Positions 1 to 25,738 are shown, numbered from the stretch's first letter. The stretch is 25,738 bases of DNA from Acidobacteriota bacterium (GCA_015493585.1 WGCW01000134.1:1-25738); one strand, 5' to 3'. Translations and numbers: made by a program. The notes: a model not told the origin generated them from the sequence alone.

Positions 1-105
1 AGAGTGACAGCTCTTCCTGTCATCCTGAGCCGCTCAATCCTCTTCCTGTCATCCTGAGCCGAAGGCGAAGGATCTGGGCGGGGGGCTCGGATGACAAGGT
101 GGGGA
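1..105. repeat. Partial copy (right arm only; window starts inside it) of the composite palindromic repeat family. It contains 2x GTCATCCTGAGCCGCTCAATCCTCTTCCT units, then GTCATCCTGAGCCGAAGGCGAAGGATCTGGGCGGGGGG and a trailing CTCGGATGACAAGGTGG unit.
   Basis: The same GTCATCCTGAG(Y)CGCTCAATCCTC block occurs at 25690-25738. The terminal GAAGGCGAAGGATCTGGGCGGGGGG matches the right ends at 2526-2547 and 19384-19407. Confidence 0.8.
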
Positions 106-10686: not shown

Positions 10687-10828
10687 CCCCCCCGGCCCAG
10701 ATTCTTCGTCGGCTTCACCTCCTCAGAATGACAGCCGGAGGGAAGGCGACGCCTCCTCAGAATGACACTTCCCCCTGTCATCCTGAGCGGCGTGCCGAAG
10801 GCTCGCCGCGAAGGATCTGGGAGGGGGC
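10687..10828. repeat. Short member (3a) of the repeat family. A variant left inverted repeat CCCAGATTCTTCGTCGGCTTCACCTCCTCAGAATGACA is followed by one unit and the hairpin CTCAGAATGACA-CTTCCCCCT-GTCATCCTGAGC, then the right end GGCGTGCCGAAGGCTCGCCGCGAAGGATCTGGGAGGGGG.
   Basis: Read directly. It is the same architecture as 2177-2547, with AGA in place of AGG in the core. Confidence 0.8.
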
Positions 10829-10844
10829 CAAAGTTGGGGACGGT

Positions 10845-11170
10845 CTTGCACTCATCTCGGCCTTCCTCTGCGAACCTCCGCGTTCTCTGCGGTTAGGTTC
10901 TCCCTGCGGCCGTCCCCCACCCAGATTCTTCGTCGGCTTCGCCTCCTCAGAATGACATTGGGGGGAAGGCTGTGCCTCCTCAGAATGACATTGGGGGGGA
11001 AGGCTGTGCCTCCTCAGAATGACATTGGGGGGAAGGCTGTGCCTCCTCAGAATGACGCCTCCCCCTGTCATCCTGGGCGGCGTGCCGAAGGCTCGCCGCG
11101 AAGGATCTCGCCTCCGCAAAATGACAGGGGGGCTTCGCCTCCGGCTCACGATGACAAGGGAGGGAAGGCC
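10845..11170. repeat. Member 3b of the repeat family. The leader CTCTGCGAACCTCCGCGTTCTCTGCGGTTAGGTTCTCCCTGCGGCCGTCCCCCA and the left inverted repeat CCCAGATTCTTCG precede a tandem array of three 33/34-nt units CCTCCTCAGAATGACATTGGGG(G)GAAGGCTGTG. Then come the hairpin arm CCTCCTCAGAATGACGCCTCCCCCT-GTCATCCTGGGC, the right inverted repeat and two further degenerate units (AAATGACAGGGGGG, CTCACGATGACAAGGGAGG).
   Basis: The leader matches 2177-2232 at about 90%. Units begin at 10950, 10983 and 11017. Confidence 0.85.
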
Positions 11171-16649: not shown

Positions 16650-17723
16650 CTAGGAGATGAACATCGCATCTCCATAGGAGAAGAACCGGTAGCGCCGAAG
16701 GACGGCCTGGCGGTAGGCTGCCAGCGCATGCTCACGACCGGCAAAGGCGCTAACGAGCATCAGGAGCGTCGACTTCGGCCAGTGGAAGTTCGTCAGCAAC
16801 CCGCCAAGCCCTTGAAAGTGAAAGCCCGGCGTGATGAACAGGCGGCTCCATCCTGATCCCGGGCGCAGCATCCCGCCTCCTGTGATCAGACCAGTCTCGA
16901 GGGTCCGGACCGCCGTCGTACCCACACACACGATCCGCCGCTGGCTGGCGAGGGCGCGGTTGATCGTGCGGCTGGCCCCTTCCGTGATTTCGTACCACTC
17001 CGCGTGCATCGTGTGATCTTCGATCCGCTCGACGGTGACGGGCCGGAAGGTGCCGATCCCGACGTGGAGGGTCACCTGGGCAATCTCGATCCCGCGGGCC
17101 GCGATCTCCTCGAGCATCTCGTGCGTCAGGTGCAGGCCAGCGGTTGGGGCGGCTACGGCTCCAGGCTTATCGGCGAAGACCGTCTGGTACGCTCGCCTGT
17201 CATCCTCCGTGGCGCCGTCCGGCCTGTGGATGTACGGGGGAAGCGGCGGTTGACCCAATGCATCGAGCCGCTCGAGGTCGAGCGCCGGCACGCAGCGGAT
17301 CCGCCAGCGCCCCTCACCAAGCCGTTCCTCGGGCACGAGGGCACCACCGTCTGGAAGGTGGAGCTCTTCCCCGGGCCGGGCCCTCGCTGACGGGCGCAGC
17401 AGCGCTTCCCACCGCTCCTCGTCCAGCGCTTTGAGGAGGAGCACCTCGAACGTCCGGCCCGTCGCGCGCTGGGCGCTCAGACGTGCGGGGAGCACCTTCG
17501 TGTCGTTGAGCACGAGCACATTGCCCGGCACGAGCAGGGTGGGAAAGTCGGCCACGCGCCGGTGCCCAACCGCTCCGGTACGCCGGTCCAGCGTCATCAT
17601 CCTCGCAGTTCCCCGCGGCCGGGGGGCCTGCGCAATCAGCTCGGGAGGCAGCTCGTAGTCAAACTCGCTCGTCCGCACCGGCGCATCATACTCCGGCAAA
17701 GGCCCGGAGAAAGGCGGTGACAC
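16650..17723 (-). CDS. queA: S-adenosylmethionine:tRNA ribosyltransferase-isomerase QueA, 342-357 aa.
   Basis: FDYELPPELIAQAP, VLVLNDTKVLPARL and LHLTHEML...HVGIGTFRPV are hallmark QueA blocks. The ORF begins with GTG at 17723. A second in-frame GTG at 17678 (V16, with GGAG 14 nt upstream) would give the more typical N-terminus VRTSEFDYELP. Confidence 0.88.
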   Translation of the reverse strand: MSPPFSGPLPEYDAPVRTSEFDYELPPELIAQAPRPRGTARMMTLDRRTGAVGHRRVADFPTLLVPGNVLVLNDTKVLPARLSAQRATGRTFEVLLLKALDEERWEALLRPSARARPGEELHLPDGGALVPEERLGEGRWRIRCVPALDLERLDALGQPPLPPYIHRPDGATEDDRRAYQTVFADKPGAVAAPTAGLHLTHEMLEEIAARGIEIAQVTLHVGIGTFRPVTVERIEDHTMHAEWYEITEGASRTINRALASQRRIVCVGTTAVRTLETGLITGGGMLRPGSGWSRLFITPGFHFQGLGGLLTNFHWPKSTLLMLVSAFAGREHALAAYRQAVLRRYRFFSYGDAMFIS

Positions 17724-19174: not shown

Positions 19175-19407
19175 CCCCCCACCCAGATCCTTCGCCTTCG
19201 GCTCAGGATGACAAGAAAAGTGGAATGGCTCAGGATGACAAGAAAAGTAGAATGGCTCAGGATGACAAGAAAAGTAGAATGGCTCAGGATGACGCGGACG
19301 AGGGATCATTCCGAGGAGGAGAAGTCATCGTTTCCCCTGTCATCCTTGAGGACAAACTATTCTTTCCCCTGTCATCCTGAGCCGAAGGCGAAGGATCCGG
19401 GTGGAGG
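19175..19407. repeat. Repeat-family member 4. The left inverted repeat CCCCCACCCAGATCCTTCGCCTTCG precedes three 27-nt units GCTCAGGATGACAAGAAAAGT(G/A)GAATG and a degenerate unit. Then come the arm TCATTCCGAGGAGGAGAAGTCATCG, 2x CCCCTGTCATCCT(T)GAG, and the right inverted repeat CCGAAGGCGAAGGATCCGGGTGGAGG.
   Basis: Units begin at 19202, 19229 and 19256. The ends are inverted-complementary (19182-19200 vs 19384-19400). Confidence 0.9.
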
Positions 19408-22485: not shown

Positions 22486-25014
22486 ATGCCAGAGTACACG
22501 CCCCTGCACGGCTCCGTCCGCGCGGCGCTCGACGCGATTCTTCCCCGCGTGATGAAGCCCGCCCGCTATCTCGGGCTGGAGCGGAATCTCGTGCGGAAGG
22601 CGTGGGACAGTGTTGCGATCCACGTCGCGCTGGCGTTCCCCGATACGTACGAGATCGGCATGTCCCATCAGGGTTCCCGGATCCTCTATCACCTGGTCAA
22701 CCGCCGTCCGGACGCCCTGGCCGAGCGGACCTACGCGCCGTGGGTCGACATGGCCGCAATGATGCGGGAGCACCGGGTCCCGCTGTACACGCTGGAATCG
22801 TACCGGCCGGTCCGTGATTTCGACGTCGTCGGGATCACGCTCCAGTCCGAGCTCAACTACATCAACGTGCCGTACCTCCTCGACCTCGGCGGTTTGTCCC
22901 GGCGGGCGGCCGATCGCCGGGAGGATGAGCCGATCGTCGTGGGCGGTGGACCGTGCATGGCCAATCCAGAACCGGTCGCCGCCTTCTTCGATGCGATGCT
23001 GATCGGAGACGCCGAGGCGGCTCTCGATCAGATCCTCGACACCATCCGCTCGGCGCGCGAGGCCGGTAGCTCGCGGCTCGGGCTGTTGCGGCGGCTGGCC
23101 GGCATCCCCGGGGTCTACGTGCCCCGGCTGTACCGCTTCGCTGGGAACGGCGCGGAAGGCGTTGCAACCGCCGCCGGGCCGGACGTGCCATACCCCGTCC
23201 AGCGGGTCTGGACGCCACACCTCGACGCCGCCGATCAGCCGGAAGTGCCGATCGTTCCGTTCGCCGGCGTCATCCAGGATCGCCTCGGCATGGAGATCAT
23301 GCGCGGCTGCACACGCGGCTGCCGCTTCTGCCAGGCGGGCTTCTGGTACCGGCCGGTCCGGGAGCACGACCCGGCCGTCATCGCCGAACGCCTGCAGCGC
23401 CAGGCCAGCGAGACCGGGTTCGAGGAAGTCGGCCTCCTGAGCCTCTCCTCGGCCGACTACTCGCAGATCTCACCGCTGGTAGCCACCCTCGCGGCGCGCT
23501 TTGAGGACCGCCGCGTCTCGGTCAGCCTGCCGAGCCTCAGAGCCGACGCATTTTCCGTCAACCTCGCCGATGCTGTCTCCCGCGTTCGCAAGTCGGGGTT
23601 CACCTTTGCCCCGGAGACCGGCTCGGACCGGCTGCGCCGCGTCATCAACAAGACCTTTACCAACGACGAGGTGATCGAGGCTGCCGGCGCCGCGTTTGCC
23701 AAGGGATGGAACCTCCTCAAGCTGTACGCGATGATCGGCCTGCCCACCGAAACCGGCGAGGACCTCCGCGAGCTGGCTGGCCTTGTCCGGAAGCTCGTCG
23801 CGCTCGGGCAAAGGATTCGTGGCCGGCGGGTCGAGGTTAAGCTCTCGGTTGGCTCCTTCATCCCGAAGCCTTGGACGCCGTTCCAGTGGGAGCCGTTTGG
23901 GCCGGTCGACGCTCTCGAACGCAAGATCGCACTGCTCCGCGACGAGCTCCGGCGCGTACGAGGTGCACGGATGACCTGGAACGATCCACATCAGGCCGCT
24001 CTCGAAGCGCTGCTGTCCCGTGGCAGCCGGGCGTTGACCCCAGCCATCGAGCGCGCGTACGAGCTCGGAGCCGTCTTTGACGGGTGGTCCGATCAGCTCA
24101 ACCTCGATGCCTGGGACCGGGCGTGCGCCGAAACCGGCATCGACCGTGAGGCCGAGCTCGGCCCGCGCAGCCTGACCGCCTCGCTTCCGTGGGACGTCAT
24201 CGCGCCCGGCGTCCGCAAGGGCTACCTCAAGGCCGAACGGCGCCGCGCGTTGAACGAAACCGTCACAGGTGACTGCAAGTGGGGCGCCTGCACCCATTGC
24301 GGCATCCCGGGCGATGGCAACGACATCGACCTCGCTCCGGCGACCCTCGCACCGCCCACTGCCCGCCGCCCGGCAATCCGCACCGGGGAGCGAACAGCGC
24401 CGGCCGCCTCCAGACGCGTCCGGATCACCTTTTCCAAGACCGGCGACGCGCGCTTCCTCTCCCATCGCCAAGTCATGGACGCTCTGGAACGGGTCCTGCG
24501 GGCCGCACAGATTCCGGTCCGGTTCACCGGCGGTTTCAACCCCCACATCCGGCTGTCGATGGGGCCGGCGCTGCCGCTCGGCTATGAGGGGCTGGCCGAA
24601 GCGTTCGACATCGAGTGCACAGCTCCACTGCGTCCCGCGCACCTCGAAAGGATCAACGCCAAGCTGCCAGACGGCCTCCGGCTGACCGGAATGACGAGCC
24701 TCCTTCCGGGCGCTCCATCGCTCGGCAAGCTGGCGGCGGCCGCCCGCTACCGGATCAAGCTGCCGGATGGCGCTCCGCCGCTGCGGCGCGAGGCGATCCC
24801 GGACGAGCTCAGACCCGGCGTACAGCTTTGGAAAGAGCTCGAAGGAGGAGCAATCCGAGTGCAGCTCAACCTCCGGCAGCAGGAGGGACCCGCGCCCACC
24901 GTGAGGACCCTGCTGACGGCGCTGGGCGTCCCGGAAACCGGTCAGGCGGCCGCTCGCATCACGCGGGAGGCCGTGATCCTCAAACCAAGAGCCAGATCGC
25001 GGGAGGCCTCATGA
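22486..25014 (+). CDS. Large radical-SAM protein, 842 aa. It appears to be a single-polypeptide fusion of a B12-binding-domain/radical-SAM enzyme (TIGR03960-like) with a radical-SAM-linked DUF2344 (TIGR03936-like) C-terminal domain.
   Basis: CTRGCRFCQAGFW is the CxxxCxxC radical-SAM cluster motif at about residue 275. The N-terminus (VAIHVALAFPDTYEIGMSHQGSRILY) resembles a cobalamin-binding-like Rossmann module. The C-terminal block RVRITFSKTGDARFLSHRQVMDALERVLRAAQIPVRFTGGFNPHIRLSMGPALPLG matches the DUF2344 profile, which I recall usually being a separate adjacent gene. Confidence 0.88.
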   Translation: MPEYTPLHGSVRAALDAILPRVMKPARYLGLERNLVRKAWDSVAIHVALAFPDTYEIGMSHQGSRILYHLVNRRPDALAERTYAPWVDMAAMMREHRVPLYTLESYRPVRDFDVVGITLQSELNYINVPYLLDLGGLSRRAADRREDEPIVVGGGPCMANPEPVAAFFDAMLIGDAEAALDQILDTIRSAREAGSSRLGLLRRLAGIPGVYVPRLYRFAGNGAEGVATAAGPDVPYPVQRVWTPHLDAADQPEVPIVPFAGVIQDRLGMEIMRGCTRGCRFCQAGFWYRPVREHDPAVIAERLQRQASETGFEEVGLLSLSSADYSQISPLVATLAARFEDRRVSVSLPSLRADAFSVNLADAVSRVRKSGFTFAPETGSDRLRRVINKTFTNDEVIEAAGAAFAKGWNLLKLYAMIGLPTETGEDLRELAGLVRKLVALGQRIRGRRVEVKLSVGSFIPKPWTPFQWEPFGPVDALERKIALLRDELRRVRGARMTWNDPHQAALEALLSRGSRALTPAIERAYELGAVFDGWSDQLNLDAWDRACAETGIDREAELGPRSLTASLPWDVIAPGVRKGYLKAERRRALNETVTGDCKWGACTHCGIPGDGNDIDLAPATLAPPTARRPAIRTGERTAPAASRRVRITFSKTGDARFLSHRQVMDALERVLRAAQIPVRFTGGFNPHIRLSMGPALPLGYEGLAEAFDIECTAPLRPAHLERINAKLPDGLRLTGMTSLLPGAPSLGKLAAAARYRIKLPDGAPPLRREAIPDELRPGVQLWKELEGGAIRVQLNLRQQEGPAPTVRTLLTALGVPETGQAAARITREAVILKPRARSREAS

Positions 25015-25433
25015 GCCGCTGGGTCGTGCACAGCCGAGCTGCATTTCACGCGCGCCACGCGCTCGCCCGGTACCGGGGTGAGCCTGAGCATCCGCACGAG
25101 CACCGGTGGAAGGTCGCCATCGAGGCCGGTTTCGAGAGCCTGACCGACGAAGGGTACGCGGCCGACTTCAGTTCGGTCCATGCCCTGCTTCGCTCGCTCG
25201 TCGCCCCGCTCGACGGAAGCGATCTTAGTCAGCACCCCGAGATCGGCGTCCCCTCCCCGACGGCCGAACGCCTCGCCGAATTTCTCGCATCCCGCCTCGC
25301 CGCCCCGCTCGGCGCCCTCGGCGGGCGCCTCCTGACGATCAGCGTCTGGGAAGGTCCTGACAACCGTGTCGACTACCATCCCGATCCAGGTCCCTCCGCC
25401 GGGCTCGAGAACTCGGAGCAGCGCTCAGGCTGA
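25011..25433 (+). CDS. 6-pyruvoyl-tetrahydropterin synthase / QueD-like (T-fold) protein, 140 aa, that lacks the catalytic Cys.
   Basis: AFHARHAL...EPEHPHEHRWKVAIEAG...ADFSSV...LTISVWEGPDNRVDYHP shows the His/HxH zinc triad and the layout of the PTPS/QueD family. The position of the QueD CxxxHGH cysteine is taken by EPEHPHEH. The start forms a 4-nt ATGA overlap with the radical-SAM stop, and GGGAGG lies 4 nt upstream. Confidence 0.7.
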   Translation: MSRWVVHSRAAFHARHALARYRGEPEHPHEHRWKVAIEAGFESLTDEGYAADFSSVHALLRSLVAPLDGSDLSQHPEIGVPSPTAERLAEFLASRLAAPLGALGGRLLTISVWEGPDNRVDYHPDPGPSAGLENSEQRSG

Positions 25434-25461
25434 CCTGGCCGTGAAGGCCTTGAGATTCCGT

Positions 25462-25738
25462 CCCCCCCGCCCAGATCCTTCGCCTCCGGCTCAGGATGAC
25501 CGGGGGAAGTGGCATGGCTCAGGATGACCTGGGGAAGTGGCATGCCTCAGGATGACCGGGACAGTGGAAGGGCTGAAGATAGCCCTGAAAGGGTTGTGCG
25601 ACTCACGACAACGACTGAGGGCGACATTCCGAGGAGACGAAGCGCGCCCTTTCCCTGTCATTCCGAGGAGGCGAAGCCATTCCTCCCTTGTCATCCTGAG
25701 TCGCTCAATCCTCCTACTGTCATCCTGAGTCGCGTGCC
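25462..25738. repeat. Repeat-family member 5; the window ends inside it. The left inverted repeat CCCCCCCGCCCAGATCCTTCGCCTCCG precedes three 28-nt units GCTCAGGATGACCGGGGGAAGTGGCATG (variants), a unique core, GACATTCCGAGGAG / CCCTGTCATTCCGAGGAGG arms, and 2x GTCATCCTGAGTCGC.
   Basis: Units begin at 25481, 25509 and 25537. The tail matches element 1 at 1-60. Confidence 0.85.

What the first reader, a model, noticed from the sequence alone, without database searches (positions are those of the whole stretch)
25011..25433. PTPS/QueD-like T-fold protein without the catalytic cysteine, translationally coupled to the radical-SAM fusion
The zinc-binding H...HxH pattern is present (FHARHAL; HPHEH) but the CxxxHGH cysteine of QueD/PTPS is replaced (EPEHPHEH). 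Cys-less PTPS paralogues generally have altered or non-catalytic roles. Its tight coupling to a radical-SAM enzyme echoes QueD-QueE logic, yet the radical-SAM enzyme here is not QueE-like, and the real queA sits 8 kb away, unlinked.
Basis: partly seen in the sequence, partly recalled or inferred. Interest (0 to 1): 0.5.

Follow-up and report, generated by a model that had tools for sequence, protein, structure and literature searches.

The report
Glutamate-type PTPS enzyme coupled to radical-SAM gene
This small gene encodes a zinc-binding pterin enzyme that uses a glutamate where QueD uses a cysteine, as in the folate-pathway PTPS-III type, and in one group of Acidobacteria it always sits directly behind a widespread radical-SAM gene of unknown function, for reasons not yet known.

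Summary
Window 25011-25433 (+) encodes a 140-aa PF01242/PTPS T-fold protein. It has the three zinc histidines (H16, H29, H31) and no cysteine at all. Its start overlaps the stop of a TIGR03960+TIGR03936 radical-SAM fusion by 4 nt (ATGA).

The reading "Cys-less, so possibly non-catalytic" is not supported. An invariant Glu26 aligns with the catalytic Glu38 of Plasmodium PTPS, the PTPS-III "ExxHGH" position. The pterin-anchoring Glu114 and all zinc ligands are invariant in 178 family members, and dN/dS is about 0.2. Among 139 superfamily representatives, Cys, the Asp-His dyad and the Gly of HGH are kept or lost together, so a missing dyad is normal for Glu-type enzymes.

It is not the clade's only QueD: two related genomes carry a canonical queE-queD pair 5.5 kb away.

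The link to the radical-SAM gene is real. It holds in all 57 genome loci with enough upstream sequence, almost always with overlapping or abutting codons, while the flanking genes vary. It also holds for a sister PTPS type only 38% identical. It is absent from the 61 distant homologues of the radical-SAM gene, many of which sit next to RNase E/G, L21 and Obg.

Best reading: an active Glu-type PTPS, probably a FolB bypass. A joint role with the radical-SAM enzyme is the main rival.

The parts
25011..25433 (+). Gene for a 140-aa Glu-type PTPS-family T-fold protein (stop codon included)
   Evidence: Pfam PF01242 E=8e-22. AF2 model pLDDT 87, best structural matches PH0634 (TM 0.89) and E. coli QueD (0.85). 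178 close homologues. dN/dS median 0.20.
25056..25103 (+). Active-site segment H16...G23-E-P-E26-H-P-H29-E-H31. It holds the zinc ligands H16, H29 and H31 and the putative general base E26. Pro25 stands where QueD has Cys27.
   Evidence: H16, E26, H29 and H31 are 178/178 conserved. E26 aligns with Glu38 of P. falciparum PTPS and with the Glu of PH0634 ExxHGH. Cys27 corresponds to Pro25 in the alignment.
25209..25238 (+). L67-D-G-S-D71-L-S-Q-H75-P76: the segment that holds the Asp-His dyad (LDHxxLN) in QueD and PTPS. The dyad is absent here. D71 and H75-P76 are conserved instead.
   Evidence: Position 68 is D/R/E/A and position 69 is G/D/R/N. D71 is conserved in 163/178 and H75 in 170/178. Comparison with QueD and PH0634.
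25347..25373 (+). W113-E114-G-P-D-N118-R119-V-D121: E114 is the pterin-anchoring glutamate of the T-fold. 'WEGPxNR' is the signature of the PTPS types linked to the radical-SAM gene.
   Evidence: E114 is 177/178 conserved and invariant across 51 Glu-type sequences. N-R at 118-119 is found outside the family in only 2 of 133 representatives, one of them the sister type P0198.
22486..25014 (+). Upstream gene: 842-aa fusion of a TIGR03960 radical-SAM protein (B12-like N-domain plus a CxxxCxxC core) with the TIGR03936/DUF2344 domain
   Evidence: Motif MEIMRGCTRGCRFCQAG. Directly upstream of the PTPS gene in all 57 genome loci with enough sequence.
25001..25014 (+). Coupling junction: Shine-Dalgarno-like GGGAGG (25001-25006), then the ATGA start/stop overlap (25011-25014)
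   Evidence: Sequence. Across 58 loci the junction is a 4-nt overlap in 41, a 1-nt overlap in 5 and a 1-nt gap in 7.
25424..25738 (.). Array of 27-28-nt repeats (core CTCAGGATGAC / GTCATCCTGAG). It starts inside the last codons of the gene, contains the stop codon, and marks the end of the gene block.
   Evidence: The disordered C-terminal tail (residues 128-140, pLDDT<50) is absent from most relatives, which are 124-133 aa.

Best explanation
The gene encodes a catalytically competent, Glu-type member of the PTPS/COG0720 T-fold family, closest in kind to PTPS-III.

Inferred mechanism:
- The protein assembles like other PTPS enzymes into a T-fold oligomer.
- H16, H29 and H31 hold a Zn2+ that binds the side-chain oxygens of a 7,8-dihydroneopterin-type pterin, most likely 7,8-dihydroneopterin triphosphate, the product of GTP cyclohydrolase I.
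- E114 anchors the 2-amino-4-oxo edge of the pterin ring.
- E26 acts as the general base in place of the Cys-His-Asp triad of QueD and PTPS-II.
- The most likely product is 6-hydroxymethyl-7,8-dihydropterin for folate synthesis, that is, a FolB bypass as described for PTPS-III in Acidobacteria, Planctomycetes and Plasmodium.

The gene is co-transcribed with the TIGR03960/TIGR03936 radical-SAM fusion and translationally coupled to it. This arrangement is ancient and strictly maintained in this acidobacterial lineage, so the two proteins are made together.

Shown here: family membership, fold, conserved residues, purifying selection, the conserved coupling, and co-existence with a canonical QueD. 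Inferred: the substrate, the product and the catalytic role of E26. Whether the two enzymes also work on a common substrate is not established.
For: Family and fold: PF01242 E=8e-22. AF2 pLDDT 87.4, with Foldseek best hits PH0634 (a pterin-binding PTPS; TM 0.89, rmsd 1.9) and E. coli QueD.

Catalytic Glu: a profile of the family aligns E26 with Glu38 of P. falciparum PTPS (FRETLHGH against the family's GxPExxHxH) and with the Glu of PH0634. Glu38 is required for 6-hydroxymethyl-dihydropterin formation (PMC2229834). PDB entries 3m0n and 3lze call the P. vivax equivalent the 'catalytic residue'. ExxHGH is the published PTPS-III signature (PMC5041015).

Conservation: H16, E26, H29, H31 and E86 are conserved in 178/178 and E114 in 177/178. 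F12, H16, E26, H29, H31, L44, E86 and E114 are invariant across 51 diverse Glu-type sequences. dN/dS median is 0.20.

The missing Asp-His dyad is normal for Glu-type enzymes. Of 53 representatives with Cys, 52 have HGH plus DH. Of 86 with Glu only, 79 lack DH and 60 have a non-Gly residue in HxH.

A triad-less Glu-type relative (P0138, HSH) overlaps the GTP cyclohydrolase I gene, next to folD and gcvTHP. This suggests such enzymes use the FolE product.

Not QueD: the score is below the TIGR03367 cut-off (48 against 89), there is no Cys, and a canonical queE-queD pair lies on the same contig in L050 and L058.

From my own knowledge, not held in the library: Pribat et al. 2009 (J Bacteriol 191:4158) reported that folB-less Acidobacteria and Planctomycetes carry Glu-type PTPS paralogues that complement an E. 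coli folB mutant.
Against: The strict PTPS-III motif is ExxHGH, whereas the family has ExxH[S/E/R/D...]H, apparently without Gly (S, E, R and D are the commonest residues there). The structurally characterised Glu-type enzymes (Plasmodium PTPS, PH0634) keep the Asp-His dyad that is missing here.

No folate gene (folK, folP, folE, folC) lies near the gene in the window or in the 59 genome loci. No THF or other riboswitch was found. I could not test whether these genomes lack folB.

The family is a tight, long-branch cluster: only 3 representatives score below 1e-30, and the next relative is far lower at 101 bits. It has its own invariant residues (R3, W4, H7, D71, H75, N118, R119, D121), which could mean a changed substrate.

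The strict, ancient coupling to one particular radical-SAM enzyme is not explained by a simple folate role.
Confidence: 0.5

Rival explanations
1. The T-fold protein is a dedicated partner of the TIGR03960/TIGR03936 radical-SAM enzyme. The two would act in sequence, or as a complex, on one GTP-derived pterin- or purine-like substrate, much as QueD-QueE or MoaA-MoaC do, or as the B12-type radical-SAM pterin methylase does in methanopterin synthesis. The product would be a lineage-specific cofactor or modified base.
For: The radical-SAM gene lies directly upstream in 57/57 genome loci. Start and stop overlap or abut in 53 of 58. The flanking genes differ: fmt/rsmB are present in only 37/60 loci, and the window has a kinase and a PDDEXK gene instead.

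The same pairing occurs with a sister PTPS type only 38% identical, beside radical-SAM genes about 50% identical. A rough radical-SAM tree suggests that the pairing predates that split. It even survives the insertion of a toxin-antitoxin pair in L088.

The two linked PTPS types share the combination H75-P76 plus N118-R119, which is not seen together in the other representatives. The family has its own invariant residues.
Against: None of the 61 distant radical-SAM homologues has a PTPS gene within up to 10 kb (about 47 have at least 500 bp downstream). 34 of the 61 are followed by RNase E/G, and smaller numbers sit in a mreB-mreC-pbp2-rodA ... L21 ... Obg setting. The core function of the radical-SAM enzyme therefore cannot depend on a PTPS.

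Several close radical-SAM lineages lack the PTPS gene (L078, L081, L083, L087, L091). Long-lived operons of unrelated housekeeping genes are common. There is no domain fusion between a PTPS and a radical-SAM or DUF2344 domain.
Confidence: 0.3
2. It is the organism's QueD, making 6-carboxy-tetrahydropterin for queuosine by a Cys-independent mechanism.
For: TIGR03367 QueD is the best NCBIfam hit. queA is in the window. NCBI labels some relatives as QueD. One Cys-less relative (P0140) sits next to queC.
Against: The score is far below the QueD cut-off (48.3 against 89.25). The catalytic Cys is required for QueD and QueD2 activity (PMC9894224), and the window protein has no Cys at all. P0140 differs in having a Cys at another position ('SGC'), which this family lacks. 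A canonical queE-queD pair (CxxxHGH plus LDH) lies 5.5 kb from the pair in L050 and L058, with more than 900 close homologues, some labelled Holophagae or Acidobacteria by NCBI.
Confidence: 0.05
3. It is a non-catalytic T-fold protein (a pseudoenzyme, scaffold or ligand-binding subunit) that has lost PTPS chemistry.
For: It has lost Cys, the Asp-His dyad and the Gly of HGH.
Against: All three Zn ligands, the candidate base Glu26 and the pterin-anchoring Glu114 are invariant over 178 sequences. The same loss pattern is the rule in a very large Glu-type group. Purifying selection is strong.
Confidence: 0.07

Closest known systems
PTPS-III (Glu-type PTPS that makes 6-hydroxymethyl-7,8-dihydropterin and bypasses FolB; e.g. 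Plasmodium falciparum PTPS, PDB 1Y13)
   Same: T-fold PF01242 domain and three His zinc ligands. A Glu three residues before the first His of the HxH pair replaces the catalytic Cys. The pterin-anchoring Glu is kept. From my own knowledge (Pribat et al. 2009, not held in the library), PTPS-III occurs in Acidobacteria.
   Different: The middle residue of HxH is apparently not Gly (S, E, R and D are commonest). The Asp-His dyad kept by the Plasmodium enzyme is absent. The family has its own invariant residues (R3, W4, H7, D71, H75, N118, R119, D121). It is always coupled to a radical-SAM gene, and no folate genes are nearby. Activity is untested.
PH0634 of Pyrococcus horikoshii (PDB 2DJ6/2DTT), an archaeal Glu-type PTPS crystallised with biopterin
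   Same: Best sequence match (E=3.4e-9 with the family profile) and best structural match (TM 0.89, rmsd 1.9). Cys-less with ExxHGH. The 'WEG' motif follows the pterin-binding Glu.
   Different: PH0634 keeps HGH and the LDH dyad. It is only 21-24% identical and has no radical-SAM partner.
QueD / PTPS-I (6-carboxy-5,6,7,8-tetrahydropterin synthase; E. coli QueD, PDB 4NTK)
   Same: Same fold and size, the same zinc ligands and the same pterin-anchoring Glu. Automated pipelines give relatives this name.
   Different: No CxxxHGH cysteine and no Asp-His dyad. Below the TIGR03367 cut-off. Not linked to queC/E/F. A canonical QueD co-exists in related genomes.
TIGR03960 / TIGR03936 (DUF2344) radical-SAM pair, function unknown
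   Same: The upstream gene is a clear member of both families, in the fused form.
   Different: In most lineages the two parts are separate genes followed by RNase E/G, with no PTPS gene. Here they are fused and followed by the PTPS-like gene.

Membership tests
PTPS / COG0720 / PF01242 T-fold superfamily | Pfam PF01242 score above the gathering threshold | tested here: met
   77.9 bits against 22.4, E=8.2e-22, profile positions 4-119 of 121
PTPS / COG0720 / PF01242 T-fold superfamily | T-fold (beta-beta-alpha-alpha-beta-beta) structure like solved PTPS and QueD | tested here: met
   AF2 pLDDT 87.4 with elements E4-16, E29-41, H53-67, H85-102, E105-114, E118-122. Foldseek TM 0.83-0.90 to 2dj6, 4ntk and 2oba.
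PTPS / COG0720 / PF01242 T-fold superfamily | Three His zinc ligands (H...HxH) and a pterin-anchoring Glu near the C-terminus | tested here: met
   H16, H29 and H31 conserved in 178/178; E114 in 177/178. Zinc binding itself was not tested.
QueD / PTPS-I | CxxxHGH (or Cx4HGH in QueD2) catalytic cysteine | tested here: not met
   Pro25 stands at the Cys27 position. The protein has zero Cys and the family has no conserved Cys column.
QueD / PTPS-I | Asp-His dyad (LDHxxLN) that completes the catalytic triad | tested here: not met
   L67-D68-G69-S70-D71-L72; positions 68 and 69 vary across the family
QueD / PTPS-I | NCBIfam TIGR03367 equivalog score above the cut-off | tested here: not met
   48.3 bits against a cut-off of 89.25
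QueD / PTPS-I | It is the genome's QueD (no canonical QueD elsewhere; clustered with queC/queE/queF) | tested here: not met
   No que gene is adjacent in 59 loci. A canonical queE-queD pair lies on the same contig in L050 and L058. The window's own genome could not be searched in full.
PTPS-II (biopterin) | CxxxxxHGH motif | tested here: not met
   No Cys in the protein
PTPS-III (folate, FolB bypass) | An active-site Glu that replaces or accompanies the Cys: Glu three residues before the first His of the zinc pair | tested here: met
   E26 is conserved in 178/178. It aligns with Glu38 of PfPTPS and with the Glu of PH0634. Motif definition from PMC5041015; role of Glu38 from PMC2229834.
PTPS-III (folate, FolB bypass) | Literal signature ExxHGH (Gly between the two His) | tested here: not met
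   The window has HEH. In the family the position is S/E/R/D and others. 60 of 86 Glu-only representatives also lack the Gly.
PTPS-III (folate, FolB bypass) | Converts dihydroneopterin triphosphate to 6-hydroxymethyl-dihydropterin and complements folB | not testable with these tools
   Needs an enzyme assay or complementation.
PTPS-III (folate, FolB bypass) | The host genome lacks folB but has the rest of the folate pathway | not tested
   Whole genomes could not be searched. Only stretches of up to about 20 kb per genome were available.
PTPS-IV | FGPAQ signature (PMC5445326) | tested here: not met
   The sequence contains no FGPAQ.
TIGR03112 (6-pyruvoyl-tetrahydropterin-synthase-related domain) | Score above the NCBIfam cut-off | tested here: not met
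   22.7 bits against 69.35
TIGR03960 + TIGR03936 radical-SAM fusion (upstream gene) | Scores above both NCBIfam cut-offs, and a CxxxCxxC cluster motif | tested here: met
   654.4 against 462.3 and 130.2 against 71.9. Motif GCTRGCRFC.

The most novel reading that the evidence does not exclude
The Glu-type T-fold enzyme and the TIGR03960/TIGR03936 radical-SAM fusion form a two-enzyme module acting on one GTP-derived pterin- or purine-like molecule. For example, the T-fold enzyme could make or trim a pterin that the B12-domain radical-SAM enzyme then alkylates or rearranges. If so, this acidobacterial operon would give the first biochemical handle on the substrate class of a very widespread radical-SAM family that has no known function.
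Probability: 0.2. Interest if true: 0.75.

Novelty: new variant of a known kind. Interest (0 to 1): 0.42.

Why it matters
Three points follow from this work.

First, it corrects a likely misannotation. Pipelines call these proteins QueD or PTPS, but they cannot be canonical QueD.

Second, it shows a simple rule for the superfamily: Cys, the Asp-His dyad and the Gly of HGH are kept or lost as one unit. A missing triad therefore marks the Glu-type chemistry and does not mean a dead enzyme.

Third, the strict and old coupling to the TIGR03960/TIGR03936 radical-SAM enzyme is a testable lead. That enzyme family is found across many bacterial phyla, many of its genes sit next to RNase E/G and ribosomal genes, and I found no published function for it. 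If the coupling is biochemical, it narrows the search for that enzyme's substrate. If it is only an operon habit, the gene is most likely an ordinary FolB-bypass enzyme of the folate pathway.

Tried and rejected
- The key COG0720 papers are not in the library (Phillips 2012 PMC3262898, Pribat 2009 PMC2698474, de Crecy-Lagard 2012 PMC3500442, Hyde 2008 PMC2720532). The signatures of PTPS-V and PTPS-VI could not be checked, so I cannot say whether this group already carries one of those labels.
- Literature searches for TIGR03960, TIGR03936, DUF2344, PF19864 and PF10105 found nothing relevant.
- Gene contexts of other Glu-type relatives were mostly uninformative (P0127, P0370, P0353, P0198). P0324 has folC 5 kb away, which is weak evidence.
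- A domain-fusion ('Rosetta stone') search among longer PTPS proteins gave only an RNase H fusion and a triple-PTPS protein, with nothing related to radical SAM.
- DUF2344 has no PDB sequence relative. A single-sequence AF2 model of it was too poor to use (pLDDT 61), so no fold search was run on it.
- The Rfam scan of the window found nothing, so there is no THF or preQ1 riboswitch. No sigma-70-like promoter or intrinsic terminator was found around the operon.
- Rejected: 'a Cys is supplied from another segment' (zero Cys), 'it is the only QueD' (a canonical queE-queD pair co-exists in relatives), 'pseudoenzyme' (catalytic residues are invariant), and membership of PTPS-II, PTPS-IV or TIGR03112 (motifs and scores not met).
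Full report
**1. What is there**

The ORF at 25011-25433 (+) starts with ATG and ends with TGA at 25431-25433. It encodes 140 aa.
- It matches Pfam PF01242 (PTPS) at E=8.2e-22 over nearly the whole profile.
- It stays far below the NCBIfam QueD equivalog cut-off: TIGR03367 gives 48.3 bits against 89.25.
- An AlphaFold2 model built on 18 homologues is confident (pLDDT 87.4) and has the T-fold element order.
- Foldseek places it with PH0634 of Pyrococcus horikoshii (TM 0.89, rmsd 1.9), E. coli QueD (0.85) and other PTPS structures.
- The last 13 residues are disordered and are missing from most relatives. They come from a repeat array that starts inside the 3' end of the gene.

The gene upstream (22486-25014) is an 842-aa fusion.
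- It combines a TIGR03960 B12-domain radical-SAM protein (654 bits, cut-off 462; motif GCTRGCRFC) with the TIGR03936/DUF2344 'radical-SAM-associated' protein (130 bits, cut-off 72).
- Its TGA overlaps the ATG of the T-fold gene (ATGA at 25011-25014), and a GGGAGG lies 4 nt upstream.
- The window belongs to an Acidobacteriota MAG, GCA_027039845.1. Its close relatives are labelled Thermoanaerobaculia, Holophagae or Sulfomarinibacteraceae.

**2. The active site: a swapped cysteine, not a dead enzyme**

- The position of E. coli QueD Cys27 is Pro25.
- The window protein contains no cysteine. 123 of 178 family members contain none, and no alignment column has a conserved Cys. A Cys contributed from another segment is therefore excluded.
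- The Asp-His dyad that completes the catalytic triad in QueD and PTPS-II (LDHxxLN) is also absent: the window has L-D-G-S-D-L, and both dyad positions vary in the family.

Other catalytic residues are fully conserved.
- Glu26, three residues before the first His of the zinc pair, is conserved in 178/178 sequences.
- So are H16, H29 and H31. The pterin-anchoring Glu114 is conserved in 177/178.
- A profile of the family aligns Glu26 with Glu38 of Plasmodium falciparum PTPS (FRETLHGH) and with the Glu of PH0634.
- Glu38 is the residue that replaces the catalytic Cys in the malarial enzyme, and it is required for making 6-hydroxymethyl-7,8-dihydropterin (PMC2229834).
- PDB entries 3m0n and 3lze name the P. 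vivax equivalent the catalytic residue.
- 'ExxHGH' is the published signature of PTPS-III, the FolB-bypass enzymes (PMC5041015).

The gene is under purifying selection: median pairwise dN/dS is 0.20 over 88 pairs.

**3. A superfamily rule that explains the 'missing' residues**

A profile search of 1.84 billion cluster representatives found 3,644 PTPS relatives. I classified 139 full-length ones among the best 150.

| Class | Number | Pattern |
|---|---|---|
| Cys at the QueD position | 53 | All have HGH; 52 have the Asp-His dyad |
| Glu only | 86 | 79 lack the dyad; 60 have a non-Gly residue between the two His |

Cys, Asp-His and that Gly are therefore kept or lost as one unit. This fits the dyad's accepted role of activating the Cys. 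The window protein is a normal member of this large, diverse Glu-type group. Across 51 of its members the invariant residues are F12, H16, E26, H29, H31, L44, E86 and E114.

One triad-less member (P0138, with HSH) overlaps the GTP cyclohydrolase I gene, next to folD and the glycine-cleavage genes. This suggests that such enzymes still take the FolE product.

**4. It is not the clade's QueD**

Two related genomes (L050 and L058; their T-fold proteins are 54-56% identical to the window protein) carry a second PTPS-family gene 5.5 kb downstream of the pair, on the same contig.
- That gene encodes 156 aa with a canonical CxxxHGH motif (HPEKCRFPHGH) and LDH.
- It sits directly behind a 225-aa radical-SAM/Fer4_12 protein whose best NCBIfam hits are all QueE models.
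- This QueD type has more than 900 close homologues, some labelled Holophagae or Acidobacteria by NCBI.
- The window's own genome could not be searched in full, so this point rests on relatives.
- queA at 16650-17723 is confirmed but is unlinked.

**5. The coupling to the radical-SAM gene is real and old, but lineage-limited**

A scan of one genome per GTDB species found 59 loci. All lie in MAGs whose titles mostly name Acidobacteriota lineages (Thermoanaerobaculia, Holophagae, Sulfomarinibacteraceae).
- In all 57 loci with enough upstream sequence, the radical-SAM fusion lies directly upstream.
- The junction is a 4-nt overlap in 41, a 1-nt overlap in 5 and a 1-nt gap in 7 of 58.
- The flanking genes are not fixed. 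fmt/rsmB lie upstream in 37 of 60 loci, and a CCG-domain protein, mutY and sigma/NrsF lie downstream in about half. The window has a Ser/Thr kinase and a PDDEXK protein instead.
- The family itself is one tight cluster: 3 representatives score below 1e-30, and the next relative scores 101 bits.

I then approached the question from the radical-SAM side with a metagenome scan using its conserved core.
- PTPS genes were found next to it only in the close group. One locus is of the same family (L075). Four are of a sister type (L079, L082, L086, L088: GGPEPLHGHSY ... LDYxYINEHP ... WEGPENRAT), which is 38% identical to the window protein. One is a third variant (L085).
- In L088 a PIN toxin-antitoxin pair has been inserted between the two genes without breaking the arrangement.
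- A rough NJ tree of the radical-SAM cores puts the two PTPS-bearing clades together. It includes PTPS-less sublineages (L078, L081, L083, L091, L087). This suggests one early acquisition followed by later losses.
- The two linked PTPS types share the combination H75-P76 plus N118-R119, which no other representative shows together.

None of the 61 distant radical-SAM homologues has a PTPS-family ORF anywhere in its locus; about 47 of them have at least 500 bp downstream.
- There the radical-SAM protein (about 638 aa) and DUF2344 (about 235 aa; 36 loci) are separate genes.
- RNase E/G follows in 34 loci. L21 (14 loci) and Obg (12 loci) lie further downstream.
- MreB (12 loci), MreC (13), PBP2 (16) and RodA (15) lie upstream.
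- The core role of the radical-SAM enzyme is therefore independent of any PTPS.

**6. Interpretation**

The best-supported reading (about 0.5) is an active Glu-type PTPS of the PTPS-III kind.
- Zinc on H16, H29 and H31 binds the side chain of 7,8-dihydroneopterin triphosphate.
- E114 holds the pterin ring.
- E26 is the base.
- The probable product is 6-hydroxymethyl-7,8-dihydropterin for folate synthesis.
- From my own knowledge, and not checkable here, Pribat et al. 2009 reported exactly such Glu-type paralogues in folB-less Acidobacteria and Planctomycetes.

Against a plain folate role:
- The literal ExxHGH signature is not met.
- The solved Glu-type enzymes keep the Asp-His dyad.
- No folate gene or riboswitch is nearby.
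- The family has its own invariant residues.
- The strict coupling to one radical-SAM enzyme is left unexplained.

The main rival (about 0.3) is that the two enzymes share a pathway. Known examples of a radical-SAM enzyme paired with an enzyme acting on a GTP-derived substrate are QueD-QueE, MoaA-MoaC and the methanopterin pterin methylase (from my own knowledge). That would be the first clue to the function of a very widespread orphan radical-SAM family. The QueD reading and the pseudoenzyme reading are each unlikely (0.07 or less).

**7. Novelty and limits**

The protein is a new variant within a known kind: a Glu-type PTPS without Gly in HxH and without the dyad, always coupled to a radical-SAM gene. 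I found no publication on the TIGR03960/DUF2344 family or on this pairing. The key COG0720 papers were not readable, so the group may already carry a PTPS-V or PTPS-VI label.

Three things were not done: a whole-genome check for folB, any oligomer or complex modelling, and any biochemistry.

Noticed in passing
window 19-58, 2252-2513, 10722-11155, 19202-19381, 25424-25729: Intergenic arrays of a 27-28-nt repeat with core CTCAGGATGAC / GTCATCCTGAG: 33 hits against 0.67 expected by chance. Each array has forward copies followed by reverse copies. Two arrays bracket the four-gene block kinase-PDDEXK-radical-SAM-PTPS. The last array supplies the stop codon and the disordered C-terminal tail of the PTPS-like protein. 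No Rfam family matches.
   Followed up: partly
representatives P0121-P0270: Across the PTPS superfamily, the catalytic Cys, the Asp-His dyad and the Gly of HGH are kept or lost together. 52 of 53 Cys-type sequences have all three. 79 of 86 Glu-only sequences lack the dyad, and 60 of them also lack the Gly.
   Followed up: partly
L094-L154, e.g. L109:9912-11471, L153:11052-11759, L145:14695-15045, L133:14534-15811: In distant lineages the TIGR03960 radical-SAM gene and a separate DUF2344 gene (36 of 61 loci) sit in a recurring setting. RNase E/G follows in 34 loci, with L21 (14) and Obg (12) further downstream, and MreB, MreC, PBP2 and RodA upstream in 12-16 loci. This hints at a housekeeping, possibly RNA- or ribosome-related, role for this orphan enzyme.
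   Followed up: partly
L050:15263-15733 (-) and L058:15748-16902 (-): A canonical uvrC-queE-queD block lies only about 5.5 kb downstream of the radical-SAM/PTPS pair in two Holophagae-labelled MAGs.
   Followed up: yes
L067:969-1340 and L068:95-1546: A Cys-less ExxHSH PTPS (P0140) that carries a Cys at a different position ('SGCAVDF') sits in recJ-PTPS-queC-DUF366. It may be a QueD with a relocated cysteine, and DUF366 may be a new queuosine-pathway neighbour.
   Followed up: no
L072:6456-7384: A triad-less Glu-type PTPS (P0138, HSH) overlaps the 3' end of the GTP cyclohydrolase I gene and lies beside folD and gcvT/H/P.
   Followed up: no
L066:10004-11284; L073:7001-9220; L074:7001-9271: The nearest stand-alone relatives (PExxHGH type) show a conserved trio of PTPS, alpha/beta-hydrolase and short-chain dehydrogenase in L073 and L074; L066 shows only the first two. 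A pteridine- or sepiapterin-reductase-like partner would suggest a separate pterin pathway in these Acidobacteria.
   Followed up: no
L088:4207-4990: A PIN-domain toxin gene and a small antitoxin-like gene are inserted between the radical-SAM gene and its PTPS partner. An MFS transporter gene follows the sister-type PTPS here and in L161.
   Followed up: no
P0133 (421 aa): A single protein with three tandem PTPS domains (Pfam 307 bits, 3 stretches), that is, a covalently linked T-fold trimer.
   Followed up: no
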